Source of the DNA: a virus
Taxonomy: Duplodnaviria > Heunggongvirae > Uroviricota > Caudoviricetes
Strand: one strand, 5' to 3'
IMG/VR virus record: IMGVR_UViG_2521172589_000005
Length of the DNA stretch: 5,340 nt
A model generated the notes under the pieces. The model searched no databases and was not told the DNA's origin. It worked only from the letters and a program-made list of their open reading frames with translations. The position numbers and the translations under genes were made by a program. Shown here in pieces: positions 3,055 through 5,340 of the stretch. Numbering within the stretch: the stretch's first letter is position 1; every line of letters starts with the position of its first letter.

Positions 3055-3477
3055 GTGGCAAAAGTTTTTACACAAGAAGAGCGGGAAAAAATTAAAGGGC
3101 AGGTGGTGGAACTCGTGCGCCAGAGCGGTCGTGAGACGTTACGGCAACTGGAAGCTAAAACAGGTGCGACTAGATATCTGATGAGCGTTCTTGCCAGAGA
3201 GCTGGTAGCCAGTGGCGATGTATACAACTCCGGCTACGGGTTATTCCCGTCTGAACAGGCGCGTAAGGACTGGCAAAACGCCCGCAAAAAACTCTCGAGG
3301 GCAAAGGTGAAGAAAACAGCTGTGGTTGATCCGGACCTTATCTGGTCGTTACCTGATGGAGAAATACGTCGCTACGACAGTCGCCTAAACATAATCTGTC
3401 GCGAGTGCCGGAAGAGCGAAGCTATGCAGCGTGTACTGGCTTTCTACCAGGGTAATTTTCAGGAGGCGGTACTGTGA
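3055..3477 (+). CDS. Hypothetical protein, 140 aa, in the slot where a helicase loader (P or DnaC-like) is normally found
   Basis: GTG start at 3055 preceded by a strong AAGGGGGA Shine-Dalgarno 5-6 nt upstream. No Walker A motif visible, so it is not a DnaC-like loader. Single CxxC (CRECRK) near the C-terminus. Function unknown. Confidence 0.75.
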   Translation: MAKVFTQEEREKIKGQVVELVRQSGRETLRQLEAKTGATRYLMSVLARELVASGDVYNSGYGLFPSEQARKDWQNARKKLSRAKVKKTAVVDPDLIWSLPDGEIRRYDSRLNIICRECRKSEAMQRVLAFYQGNFQEAVL

Positions 3478-3714
3478 GTGAAATTAGCTATCAGGCTTCA
3501 ATTGCCGCTGGCATTCGCATCAAAGGAGAGGAGCATGGAAATAAAACCAGAGGATTAGTTAAGCAATATCGTTTTATTTCCGATAAAAGAGGATGACCCT
3601 CGTAATCAGGTTAATTTTCTTTATGAGCCATCGGAAAGACCATATTGCCATCACGCTTCTGTCCGGGTTGACGAAAAAGAGCGTCAGGTCCGCTGTAAAA
3701 TCTGAGGTGCAGTT

Positions 3715-3891
3715 GTGGAGCCATTTGACTGGATGCTCTCTGTGGCGAAAAGAGAAACCAGACTGGCAGATGATGTAAGGCTCTTGCGCCAGGAGGAACG
3801 GGAAAGGCGAAAAAATATAGAAAAGCTAATTCAGATTGAGCGTAACGGGAAAGCGCGGATACGCAGGGTGACAAAATCCAGAACTGAATAA
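3715..3891 (+). CDS. Small basic, coiled-coil-like protein, 58 aa (hypothetical); below the ORF-track cutoff
   Basis: GTG at 3715 with GAGGTG Shine-Dalgarno 5 nt upstream. Product VEPFDWMLSVAKRETRLADDVRLLRQEERERRKNIEKLIQIERNGKARIRRVTKSRTE, stop TAA 3889-3891. Competes with the listed minus ORF 3611..3943, whose translation looks non-protein-like. Confidence 0.4.
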   Translation: MEPFDWMLSVAKRETRLADDVRLLRQEERERRKNIEKLIQIERNGKARIRRVTKSRTE

Positions 3892-3984: not shown

Positions 3985-4122
3985 ATGCGAAAGTTTAAAA
4001 TAATTATTGAAACGGGAATAGCCGGTGGAGATTTCGAGGATGAATTCGAAGTGGATAATGATGCGACGCCTGATGAAATACATGACGAAGCAAAAGATAT
4101 TTTCTTTAACTACTGCAATTAA
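3985..4122 (+). CDS. Very acidic small protein, 45 aa (hypothetical)
   Basis: ATG at 3985, stop TAA 4120-4122. Product MRKFKIIIETGIAGGDFEDEFEVDNDATPDEIHDEAKDIFFNYCN has 13 Asp/Glu in 45 residues. AGGAGG at 3955-3960 is separated from the ATG by a GC hairpin (3961-3978). Confidence 0.45.
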   Translation: MRKFKIIIETGIAGGDFEDEFEVDNDATPDEIHDEAKDIFFNYCN

Positions 4123-4159: not shown

Positions 4160-4336
4160 ATGGCTGATTTTGGTTCAACTAAATACAACGTCGGTTTTGA
4201 AGAATGGCATGAACTGTTAATGGACTATGCAGAGTTACGTGGTGGCAGTGCTGCTGATGCTGAAGCATGGCGTGATGATTATGAAGCAGGAAAAACTCCG
4301 GTCGAAGCATATTGTGATGAGTGGGGCGATGAATGA
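4160..4336 (+). CDS. Very acidic small protein, 58 aa (hypothetical)
   Basis: GAGGAGG Shine-Dalgarno at 4144-4150 and ATG at 4160. Product MADFGSTKYNVGFEEWHELLMDYAELRGGSAADAEAWRDDYEAGKTPVEAYCDEWGDE has 16 Asp/Glu in 58 residues. Stop TGA 4334-4336 overlaps the next ATG (ATGA). Confidence 0.55.
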   Translation: MADFGSTKYNVGFEEWHELLMDYAELRGGSAADAEAWRDDYEAGKTPVEAYCDEWGDE

Positions 4337-4648
4337 GCGAGGTTAATTATCAGGAAGGGCATGAAACGGCGGGGCAAGCAAAAACAGTGGCATGGCGATA
4401 TCGCTACGTGAAAAAAAGGCGTTACGGACTTTCAGGGGAAGTAGTGGTCTGGTGACTGGAAATATGTACCGAAAAAAGAGGATTGTAACGATAGGCAGAA
4501 CTATGAAATTCAGGCCTTATTCACTGCCCCGCCAGTCCCGGTTACATCAGAAGAACTGGTTAAAGCTGTGCACTTTTATGAACAACTAAAACGCGAAAAT
4601 CCACCAGCATCCGGAAACCTGATTACAGATTCCCAGATAAGGCAATGA
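4333..4648 (+). pseudogene. Frame-split gene: 40-codon ORF (4333..4455) abutting a 67-codon protein-like frame (+1, 4445..4648) that has no start codon; frameshifted pseudogene or recoding candidate
   Basis: ATG 4333 is coupled to the upstream stop; this frame ends at TGA 4453-4455 in a TGA-C context. The +1 frame opens at 4445 and encodes ...DWKYVPKKEDCNDRQNYEIQALFTAPPVPVTSEELVKAVHFYEQLKRENPPASGNLITDSQIRQ with no ATG/GTG/TTG before codon 42. The track ORF 4392..4589 in the third frame looks non-coding. Confidence 0.35.
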
Positions 4649-4818
4649 GCTACCTGGCGCAGAACGGGCTGATAAGTATGGGGAATGTTTTACGATGAAT
4701 ATTTAGACTAAAGAGTTTGTAACGCTATGTAAGTGATTTTTTCTGGTTTAGATATTTATATGTCCGGCTAAATTGAGGTGTGTTTAAATGTTATTGCACA
4801 TTGATTGTAGGGGGAATA

Positions 4819-4998
4819 ATGAAAAACGCATTGCAGTTTTTGTTTGTTGCGTTCTGGTTGTTCGCATCATGTATGCCCATCATCTTCACAGCAAGGTATA
4901 TGGAAAAAGTTGATGTTTTGATATTAATATTTGGATATATAAATGCCCTTTTTTTAGGGGTGTTCATGGCGGTCATGTGCATTGAATACTGGCGGTAA
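4819..4998 (+). CDS. Small hydrophobic protein, 59 aa, two predicted transmembrane helices (hypothetical)
   Basis: Internal ATG at 4819 of track ORF 4780..4998, with AGGGGGA Shine-Dalgarno 4 nt upstream. Product MKNALQFLFVAFWLFASCMPIIFTARYMEKVDVLILIFGYINALFLGVFMAVMCIEYWR has two hydrophobic segments of about 20 residues. Sits in a visibly AT-rich islet (about 4680-5000). Confidence 0.55.
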   Translation: MKNALQFLFVAFWLFASCMPIIFTARYMEKVDVLILIFGYINALFLGVFMAVMCIEYWR

Positions 4999-5080: not shown

Positions 5081-5087
5081 GACTGCG

Positions 5088-5255
5088 GGTGCTTGAGGCT
5101 ATCTGCCTCGGGCACGAACACCAACGGCAGGTAGAGAAAAGCCCCAGTTAACATTACGCGTCCTGCAAGACGCTTAACATTAATCTGAGGCCAATTTCAT
5201 GCTAGACACATGTAGGTTAGCCTCTTACGTGCCGAAAGGCAAGGAGAAGCAGGCT
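5088..5255 (+). promoter_or_regulatory. hok mRNA leader with tac-like 5' element and Sok-target region
   Basis: CTTGAGGCTATCTGCCTC (5092-5109) closely resembles the 5' tac element of plasmid R1 hok mRNA (CTTGAGGCTTTCTGCCTC, from memory). TAGCCTCTTAC...GCAAGGAGAAG..GGC.ATGAA upstream of the start likewise parallels the R1 mok/hok initiation region. AAGGAG Shine-Dalgarno at 5241-5246. Confidence 0.55.
5140..5207 (-). ncRNA. Putative Sok-like antisense RNA (boundaries approximate)
   Basis: On the minus strand: -35 TTGCCT (complement of 5237-5242), 17-nt spacer, -10 TAACCT (complement of 5214-5219), the same layout as the R1 sok promoter (TTGCGC-17-TATCCT). Transcript would be antisense to the hok leader. 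The 3' end is not defined; there is a GCGTC/GACGC hairpin near 5157-5172 but no clean U-tract. Confidence 0.4.
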
Positions 5256-5340
5256 ATGAAGCAGCAAAAGGCGATGTTAATCGCCCTGATCGTCATCTGT
5301 TTAACCGTCATAGTGACGGCACTGGTAACGAGGAAAGACC
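5256..5340 (+). CDS. hokD: Hok-family type I toxin, N-terminal 28 codons only (gene runs off the window end)
   Basis: ATG at 5256 with AAGGAG 9 nt upstream. Translation MKQQKAMLIALIVICLTVIVTALVTRKD matches the HokD (RelF)/Gef N-terminus and transmembrane segment as I recall them. Location on the dicC side of a Qin-like prophage fits hokD. Confidence 0.8.
   Translation, partial: MKQQKAMLIALIVICLTVIVTALVTRKD

What the first reader, a model, noticed from the sequence alone, without database searches (positions are those of the whole stretch)
4333..4648. Protein-like reading frame split across two frames with no start codon for the downstream part
A coupled 40-codon ORF (4333-4455) ends at UGA followed by C, a weak termination context. 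The +1 frame overlapping its last 11 nt encodes 67 protein-like codons with no initiator before codon 42. Either a single roughly 105-aa gene has suffered a frameshift, or the downstream part is reached by recoding. The A7 run at 4411-4417 is upstream of the junction and does not rescue the frame by a 1-nt change.
Basis: seen in the sequence. Interest (0 to 1): 0.45.

Follow-up and report, generated by a model that had tools for sequence, protein, structure and literature searches.

The report
Decayed prophage gene, already annotated pseudogene
The split reading frame is the wreck of an ordinary prophage gene of unknown function, broken by an extra A in a run of A's, an in-frame stop codon and two deletions; it is not a recoding signal, and RefSeq already labels it a pseudogene.

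Summary
A 40-codon ORF (4333-4455, UGA-C) is followed by a 67-codon start-less open stretch in the +1 frame (4445-4645, stop 4646-4648).

Intact single-frame homologs explain it. The ancestral gene encodes 171 aa (E. coli APEC O1 WP_001289997.1); a shorter 104-aa allele also exists (WP_001529162.1). Against these, the window copy carries four lesions:
- A6->A7 in the homopolymer at 4411-4417.
- A TAG nonsense codon at 4442-4444 in the ancestral frame.
- A 90-nt in-frame deletion between short direct repeats, near 4598.
- A 61-nt frameshifting deletion, near 4617. It strands the ancestral C-terminal tail in frame 1 (4615-4698).

The window is 100% identical to a Qin-like prophage of E. coli 1EC213. 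There NCBI's PGAP already annotates 4333-4698 as a pseudogene, "frameshifted; internal stop". The TAG occurs with A6, A7 and A8 runs in at least 424, 61 and 339 complete E. coli genomes, so no run length restores the protein.

A +1 recoding event at UGG-UGA-C lacks a slippery codon and a correctly spaced SD element, and the arrangement is not conserved. Neighbouring genes in the window also carry nonsense mutations. Verdict: ordinary gene decay in a cryptic prophage, of low interest.

The parts
4333..4698 (+). Full extent of the pseudogene, a remnant of a 171-aa phrog_660-family prophage gene
   Evidence: PGAP pseudogene IB009_RS12930, 'frameshifted; internal stop', in the 100%-identical E. 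coli 1EC213 locus (L005 5034-5399 = window 4333-4698). Alignment to the APEC O1 gene.
4333..4410 (+). N-terminal segment in frame 1 (MSEVNYQEGHETAGQAKTVAWRYRYV), still in the ancestral frame. The ATG overlaps the stop of the upstream gene (ATGA).
   Evidence: Identical register to the intact homologs MSEINYQEGHETAGQAKPVAWRYRYVKKGVTD....
4411..4417 (+). A7 homopolymer, lesion 1: a +1 insertion relative to the 6-nt run of all intact homologs. This is the true frameshift site.
   Evidence: Alignments; run lengths (intact: A6 x4, AGAAAA x1; TAG lineage: A6, A7, A8).
4418..4614 (+). Middle segment in frame 2 (GVTDFQGK*WSGDWKYVP...KRENPPAS), corresponding to ancestral residues ~29-93
   Evidence: dN/dS is 0.18-0.39 in this frame among intact homologs.
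4442..4444 (+). TAG nonsense codon in the ancestral frame, lesion 2. Intact homologs have CCG (Pro), CTG (Leu) or ATG (Met) here.
   Evidence: Found with A6, A7 and A8 in at least 424, 61 and 339 genomes.
4453..4455 (+). TGA that ends the shifted frame-1 reading, giving the 40-codon ORF. The last 12 codons (RRYGLSGEVVVW) are out-of-frame translation, not ancestral sequence.
   Evidence: One search compared.
4598..4611 (+). Surviving copy of the direct repeat AATCC(A/G)C(C/T)AGC. It marks the junction of a 90-nt in-frame deletion (lesion 3). The junction position is ambiguous within the repeat.
   Evidence: Pairwise alignment to the APEC O1 gene.
4617..4618 (+). Approximate junction of a 61-nt frameshifting deletion (lesion 4). 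E. coli 042 and PhiR42_1 retain 57 nt of it.
4615..4698 (+). Displaced ancestral C-terminal tail, now in frame 1 (KPDYRFPDKAMSYLAQNGLISMGNVLR*, TGA 4696-4698)
   Evidence: 59% identity to residues 145-171 of the 171-aa protein, E 7e-11.
4646..4648 (+). TGA ending the frame-2 stretch. This is also the stop used by the 104-aa allele WP_001529162.1.

Best explanation
Window 4333-4698 is a non-functional pseudogene in a Qin-like cryptic lambdoid prophage of E. coli.

Its ancestor was a 171-aa early-region gene of unknown function (PHROG family 660). It was translationally coupled to the upstream gene through an ATGA overlap. The copy in the window carries four lesions:
- a one-base expansion of an A6 homopolymer to A7, which shifts frame 1 to frame 2;
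- a TAG nonsense codon 25 nt downstream, in the ancestral frame;
- a 90-nt in-frame deletion between short direct repeats;
- a 61-nt deletion that shifts the C-terminal tail back into frame 1.

The 40-codon ORF is the native N-terminus (26 residues plus two Lys) followed by 12 out-of-frame codons. The 67-codon start-less frame is the inherited middle of the protein. It still looks protein-like because inactivation is recent relative to its divergence.

Shown: the lesions, the intact homologs, the allele counts and the existing pseudogene annotation.

Inferred: the order of events, with TAG first in an A6 background, followed by neutral slippage of the A-run to A7 or A8 and further deletion. 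Also inferred: that at most a truncated 36-40-aa peptide is made when the prophage early operon is on.
For: - Intact single-frame homologs read frame 1 then frame 2 across a 6-nt run: pPE4 gp20 at 119 aa, mEp460 at 155 aa, WP4-S17 at 104 aa, APEC O1 and strain 190693 at 171 aa.
- All four lesions are mapped base by base against the APEC O1 gene.
- The frame-2 67 aa are 75% identical to residues 38-100 of the 171-aa protein (E 3e-34). The frame-1 tail is 59% identical to residues 145-171 (E 7e-11).
- dN/dS is 0.18-0.39 for the frame-2 segment among intact homologs, so this is the selected frame.
- The window is 100% identical to E. coli 1EC213. PGAP annotates exactly 4333-4698 there as a pseudogene, 'frameshifted; internal stop'. 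The same label is given to the A8 allele and to the A6+TAG allele in E. coli 042.
- TAG is linked to all three run lengths, by exact 79-81-mers: A6 in 424, A7 in 61 and A8 in 339 complete genomes. No run length restores the ORF.
- The prophage carries no amber-suppressor tRNA.
- Neighbouring genes in the same window are also broken relative to 99%-identical relatives.
Against: - Within the TAG lineage there are too few substitutions (1-3 synonymous, 1-3 non-synonymous per pair) to demonstrate relaxed selection directly.
- The pseudogene persists in roughly a fifth of complete E. coli genomes. Vertical inheritance of a cryptic prophage would explain that, but it does not exclude some residual role for the DNA or for the N-terminal peptide.
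- No expression data were available.
Confidence: 0.93

Rival explanations
1. Programmed +1 ribosomal frameshift at UGG UGA C (4450-4456), of the prfB type, joins the 40-codon ORF to the frame-2 stretch to make a ~105-aa protein.
For: The stop is UGA followed by C, a weak termination context in E. coli (established knowledge; sequence). The two frames overlap by 11 nt. A G-rich SD-like AGGGG lies upstream at 4434-4438.
Against: - tRNA-Trp on UGG cannot re-pair with the +1 codon GGU. The preceding codons do no better (GUC->UCU, GUG->UGG).
- The SD-like element is 11 nt from the shift codon. prfB has 3 nt.
- The fusion would replace the conserved GVTDFQGKPWVG with RRYGLSGEVVVW.
- The arrangement exists only in the A7 allele (61 genomes). 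It is absent from the A6 and A8 alleles (424 and 339 genomes) and from all intact homologs, which are single-frame.
Confidence: 0.01
2. The A7 run is a sequencing or assembly error in a homopolymer, and the real gene is intact.
For: Homopolymer length errors are common. Close relatives differ only in run length, A6, A7 or A8.
Against: - The exact A7+TAG 80-mer occurs in 61 complete genomes from many laboratories and hosts.
- Correcting the run to A6 still leaves TAG 4442-4444 and the 61-nt deletion.
- E. coli 042 and ATCC 8739 carry A6 with the TAG, and the 042 copy is annotated as a pseudogene.
Confidence: 0.02
3. The remnant has been kept because a truncated product is useful. Candidates are the 36-40-aa N-terminal peptide, still translationally coupled to the upstream gene, or the 85-aa alternative-frame ORF of the A8 allele. 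The A-run would act as a phase-variable switch between products.
For: The start codon, the ATGA coupling and the first 26 codons are intact in all alleles. Run length is polymorphic among 99%-identical sequences. The locus is very widespread.
Against: - No run length restores the native protein.
- The A8 product past the run is out-of-frame, highly basic sequence with no homolog.
- PGAP treats all three alleles as pseudogenes.
- Adjacent genes show the same pattern of random inactivation. That fits general decay of a repressed cryptic prophage better than a specific switch.
Confidence: 0.04

Closest known systems
RefSeq/PGAP pseudogene IB009_RS12930 (E. coli 1EC213, NZ_CP061101.1), with equivalents JLE48_RS12905 and EC042_RS30930
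   Same: Identical sequence and coordinates (window 4333-4698). Annotated 'hypothetical protein; frameshifted; internal stop'.
   Different: Nothing differs; this is the same object. The annotation does not spell out the lesions, which are mapped here.
Intact homologs: WP_001289997.1 (APEC O1, 171 aa), WP_163510520.1 (171 aa), WP_001529162.1 (104 aa), phage pPE4 gp20 (119 aa), mEp460 VUD37832.1 (155 aa); PHROG family phrog_660, unknown function
   Same: Same gene position, after the DUF7167 gene and a 58-aa gene and upstream of hok/sok. The N-terminus and core are the same, at 75-90% identity. All hit phrog_660.
   Different: They are single-frame and uninterrupted. The window copy has the A7 frameshift, the TAG and two deletions. 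C-terminal modules differ between family members, which is mosaicism.
prfB (RF2) programmed +1 frameshift, CUU UGA C
   Same: An in-frame UGA followed by C at the junction of a zero frame and a +1 frame.
   Different: There is no slippery codon, the SD-like element has the wrong spacing, the arrangement is not conserved in homologs, and the junction is not at the ancestral frame switch.
Homopolymer slippage: phase-variable contingency loci and transcriptional slippage on A/T runs
   Same: The A-run length varies (6, 7 or 8) among near-identical sequences, as expected of a slippage-prone tract.
   Different: No run length yields the full protein, because TAG is linked to all three. The run is shorter than the ~9 nt usually needed for efficient RNA polymerase slippage (established knowledge). 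The variation looks like neutral drift after inactivation.

Membership tests
Pseudogene of a phrog_660-family prophage gene | Intact, single-frame homologs exist that span both halves | tested here: met
   proteins of 104-171 aa reading ...WRYRYVKKGVTDFQ..W.GDWKYVP... continuously.
Pseudogene of a phrog_660-family prophage gene | Specific disabling lesions can be mapped against the intact gene | tested here: met
   A6->A7, TAG at 4442-4444, a 90-nt deletion and a 61-nt deletion.
Pseudogene of a phrog_660-family prophage gene | Significant similarity of each displaced segment to the family | tested here: met
   phrog_660, E 6e-27 for the repaired protein; E 3e-34; E 7e-11.
Pseudogene of a phrog_660-family prophage gene | The full-length protein is not produced | not testable with these tools
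   Needs proteomics or Ribo-seq. There is no suppressor tRNA in the prophage.
prfB-type programmed +1 frameshift | P-site codon whose tRNA can re-pair in the +1 frame | tested here: not met
   Sequence GUC UGG UGA C at 4447-4456. UGG->GGU and GUC->UCU give no re-pairing.
prfB-type programmed +1 frameshift | In-frame stop codon in a weak context at the shift site | tested here: met
   UGA-C at 4453-4456.
prfB-type programmed +1 frameshift | SD-like element ~3 nt upstream of the shift codon | tested here: not met
   AGGGG at 4434-4438 is 11 nt upstream of UGG 4450.
prfB-type programmed +1 frameshift | The two-frame architecture is conserved among homologs | tested here: not met
   Intact homologs are single-frame. 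A6 and A8 alleles have different frame arrangements.
Phase-variable homopolymer (contingency) gene | Tract length is polymorphic among close relatives | tested here: met
   A6, A7 and A8 in sequences 94-99% identical.
Phase-variable homopolymer (contingency) gene | At least one tract length gives the full ORF (an ON state) | tested here: not met
   TAG 4442-4444 accompanies all three lengths in the window lineage.
Ead/Ea22-like family (NCBIfam naming) | Match to a curated family model | tested here: not met
   No NCBIfam or Pfam hit for the 171-, 155- or 104-aa proteins. Only short C-terminal modules resemble regions annotated ead/Ea22-like in some phages.

The most novel reading that the evidence does not exclude
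The slippage-prone A-run (A6, A7 or A8), together with the preserved start and translational coupling, could make this remnant a switchable source of short alternative peptides (36, 40 or 85 aa) with some role in the cryptic prophage, rather than inert wreckage.
Probability: 0.03. Interest if true: 0.3.

Novelty: already known. Interest (0 to 1): 0.07.

Why it matters
It matters little biologically. It is a textbook case of gene decay in a defective prophage, and the public annotation already flags it.

Its use is methodological. An apparent "split ORF with weak UGA-C stop" was resolved by comparison with intact homologs. The homopolymer that seemed not to rescue the frame was in fact the frameshift site, masked by a second lesion (a nonsense codon) just downstream.

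The allele series forms a tidy natural decay ladder that could serve as a marker for Qin-like prophage lineages:
1. the 171-aa gene;
2. deletion derivatives;
3. the TAG allele;
4. A7 and A8 run expansions.

Tried and rejected
- **+1 recoding at UGG-UGA-C:** rejected on codon re-pairing, SD spacing, non-conservation and the non-native product.
- **Rescue at the A-run:** the codons AAA AAA AGG in frame 1 could plausibly slip +1 on the rare AGG codon, or the run could lose an A in transcription. Either way the ribosome meets TAG 4442-4444 after 8 codons, so this was rejected as a route to the full protein.
- **Amber suppression by a prophage tRNA:** the prophage tRNAs have anticodons CAT and TCT only.
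- **Sequencing error:** the A7 allele is in 61 genomes, and the TAG is independent of the run.
- **Function of the ancestral protein:** there were no Pfam, NCBIfam or PADLOC hits. The PDB sequence search gave only spurious low-complexity or designed-protein matches. Only phrog_660, 'unknown function', matched.
- **Relaxed selection inside the TAG lineage:** dN/dS was tried, but there are too few substitutions to be informative.
- **Open-frame length as evidence:** a 67-codon open stretch is within the shuffle expectation, so the case rests on homology.
- **Searches not used:** the large protein-database and structure-prediction tools were left unused because the answer did not depend on them.

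Full report
**1. Checking the observation**

The coordinates are correct.
- Frame 1 has an ATG at 4333 that overlaps the TGA of the upstream 58-aa gene (ATGA). It runs 40 codons to TGA 4453-4455, followed by C.
- Frame 2 is open from 4445, immediately after TAG 4442-4444, to 4645, with TGA at 4646-4648. That is 67 codons, and the first potential initiator is GTG at codon 42.
- The A7 run is at 4411-4417.

The length of the open stretch is not beyond chance. The window contains 29 stop-free stretches of at least 67 codons, and dinucleotide shuffles give 21 +/- 4. Whether this one is real depends on homology.

**2. What the sequence is**

A blastn search of phage genomes found close relatives whose matching span differed from the query by one base. 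It also found more distant ones with a long single CDS at the same position. The phage-record homologs with an uninterrupted CDS are:
- Phage pPE4 gp20, 119 aa: MSEINYQEGHETAGQAKPVAWRYRYVKKGVTDSQGEPWVGDWKYVPTKEDCNDRPSYEIQALF....
- mEp460 VUD37832, 155 aa, which has the same core behind a different N-terminus.

Both read the window's frame 1 up to the homopolymer and the window's frame 2 after it. Both have a 6-nt run where the window has A7: pPE4 has A6 and mEp460 has AGAAAA. The frameshift is therefore in the A-run itself.

The reason is a second lesion. The ancestral-frame codon at 4442-4444 is TAG in the window, where intact homologs have CCG, CTG or ATG.

In the complete E. coli genomes the locus is common: 1,914 of 5,426 genomes match, and 1,217 of them match over at least 80% of the query. 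Three findings from that survey matter here.
- The window is 100% identical to the chromosome of strain 1EC213. It lies there in a Qin-like prophage (ydfD, dicB, ydfC, ydfB, a DicA-like repressor, cro, ydaT, replication genes, then hokD, rem, rusA and an antiterminator). PGAP annotates exactly window 4333-4698 as pseudogene IB009_RS12930, 'frameshifted; internal stop'. The A8 allele of strain STN0717-20 and the A6+TAG allele of E. coli 042 carry the same label.
- Strain WP4-S17-ESBL-08 has an uninterrupted 104-aa CDS (WP_001529162.1) with A6, CTG in place of TAG, and the same 3' end as the window.
- APEC O1 and strain 190693 carry a longer 171-aa gene.

A pairwise alignment of the window against the APEC O1 gene maps four lesions:

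| Lesion | Position | Effect |
|---|---|---|
| +1 A in the A-run | 4411-4417 | frameshift, frame 1 to frame 2 |
| TAG replacing a sense codon | 4442-4444 | nonsense in the ancestral frame |
| 90-nt deletion between two copies of AATCC(A/G)C(C/T)AGC | surviving copy at 4598-4611 | in-frame |
| 61-nt deletion | about 4617/4618 | frameshift |

The 61-nt deletion puts the ancestral C-terminal tail out of frame. That tail is still readable in frame 1 at 4615-4698 (KPDYRFPDKAMSYLAQNGLISMGNVLR*). It is 59% identical to residues 145-171 of the 171-aa protein (E 7e-11). This explains why PGAP extends the pseudogene to 4698.

The frame-2 stretch is 75% identical to residues 38-100 (E 3e-34). Among intact homologs this segment has dN/dS of 0.18-0.39 in frame 2, which confirms that frame 2 is the selected coding frame.

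E. coli 042 and phage PhiR42_1 retain 57 nt of the 61-nt segment, but those copies have stops and a 4-nt deletion. The alleles therefore form a decay series.

**3. Allele survey**

Exact 79-81-nt queries spanning the run and the TAG were used. For queries this short, the >=99% identity band means no differences.

| Allele | Genomes |
|---|---|
| A7+TAG (the window's allele) | 61 |
| A8+TAG | 339 |
| A6+TAG (042 type) | 424 |
| At least 80% of the full 516-nt gene | 295 |

These counts are lower bounds, because flanking SNPs remove some genomes. Three conclusions follow:
- The A7 allele is not a one-off sequencing error.
- No run length in this lineage restores the protein.

In the A8 allele, frame 1 continues into frame 3. 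This gives an 85-aa ORF whose second half is basic, homolog-free sequence.

My inference, not shown, is this order of events: TAG arose first in an A6 background, and the homopolymer then drifted by replication slippage in an already dead gene.

**4. Mechanistic alternatives**

- **A prfB-like +1 shift at UGG UGA C.** It has the weak stop context and nothing else. tRNA-Trp cannot re-pair on GGU. The SD-like AGGGG (4434-4438) is 11 nt from the shift codon rather than 3. The product would contain RRYGLSGEVVVW in place of the conserved GVTDFQGKPWVG. Homologs do not share the arrangement.
- **A shift at the A-run.** The context AAA AAA AGG is plausibly shift-prone because AGG is a rare codon, and transcriptional loss of an A is also conceivable. 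Either route reaches TAG after eight codons. A full-length product would therefore need two independent recoding events, and it would still lack the native C-terminus.
- **Amber suppression.** The prophage carries no amber suppressor; its tRNAs have anticodons CAT and TCT.

**5. What the ancestral gene did**

This is unknown. The only match is phrog_660, 'unknown function'. There were no Pfam, NCBIfam, PADLOC or meaningful PDB sequence matches. Protein-level hits in phages show a mosaic family. Its core and C-terminal modules recur in Stx phages and in regions annotated ead/Ea22-like.

**6. Context supports general decay**

Two neighbouring genes in the window are also broken relative to 99%-identical relatives.
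- The phrog_1621 gene at 3535-3891 has TAG at 3556-3558 and TGA at 3703-3705. Phage 640R1 has GAG and TGC at those positions. PGAP labels the region 'internal stop'.
- The DUF7167 gene at 3985-4122 is cut from 60 to 45 aa by a TAC->TAA change at 4120-4122.

This is the pattern expected of a repressed, vertically inherited cryptic prophage.

**7. Verdict**

- The 'frameshifted gene' reading is right in outline but wrong on where the break is and on how many lesions there are.
- Recoding is not supported.
- The feature is already annotated as a pseudogene in RefSeq, so it is ordinary and of low interest.

Noticed in passing
window 3535-3891 (+): A second pseudogene. This phrog_1621 gene (118 aa when repaired, with a CxxC...CxxC-like motif) has two nonsense codons, TAG 3556-3558 and TGA 3703-3705. 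The 99%-identical phage vB_EcoS-640R1 has GAG and TGC there. PGAP labels 3568-3891 'internal stop' in strain 1EC213 and calls the upstream fragment 3474-3596 a separate 40-aa CDS.
   Followed up: partly
window 3985-4122 (+): The DUF7167 gene is truncated to 45 aa by TAC->TAA at 4120-4122. Relatives encode 60 aa and overlap the next gene's start by 8 nt.
   Followed up: partly
window 3556, 3705, 4122, 4497: Several window-specific changes relative to close relatives are C:G->A:T transversions: GAG->TAG, TGC->TGA, TAC->TAA and CCG->CAG (P->Q at an invariant Pro). Three of them create stop codons within ~600 nt. I did not test whether this reflects a mutational bias (oxidative damage, or a mutY/mutT-like spectrum) or chance.
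   Followed up: no
window 5087-5261 (+) and 5256-5340 (+): A hok/sok type I toxin-antitoxin locus. The Rfam sok model RF01794 matches at 107.8 bits. The hokD ORF (MKQQKAMLIALIVICLTVIVTALVTRKD...) starts at 5256 and runs off the end of the window.
   Followed up: partly
window 4819-4998 (+): An ORF for a 59-aa protein with two hydrophobic segments (MKNALQFLFVAFWLFASCMPIIF...GVFMAVMCIEYWR) sits behind a GGGGGAA ribosome-binding-like motif in an AT-rich stretch between the pseudogene and hok/sok. PGAP does not annotate it in 1EC213. The 640R1 phage record annotates the opposite strand as 'hornerin', which looks like a misannotation. There were no PHROG or NCBIfam hits.
   Followed up: partly
L008:634-948 (WP_001529162.1): The 'intact' 104-aa allele that PGAP accepts as a normal CDS is itself a deletion derivative of the 171-aa gene. 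It has the 90-nt and 61-nt deletions, and its last 11 residues (GNLITDSQIRQ) are out-of-frame translation of the ancestral tail.
   Followed up: yes
window 4333-4698: The net length change relative to the 171-aa gene is +1 -90 -61 = -150 nt, a multiple of three. The N-terminus and the stranded C-terminal tail are therefore both in frame 1, with only the middle in frame 2. This is probably coincidence.
   Followed up: no
L003 (PP818812.1, 'Actinobacillus phage vB_Apl-pPE4'): A phage deposited as infecting Actinobacillus pleuropneumoniae shares ~90% nucleotide identity with this E. coli prophage region, including the Ead/Ea22-like and Hok genes. The host assignment looks questionable, or it reflects an E. 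coli-derived prophage.
   Followed up: no
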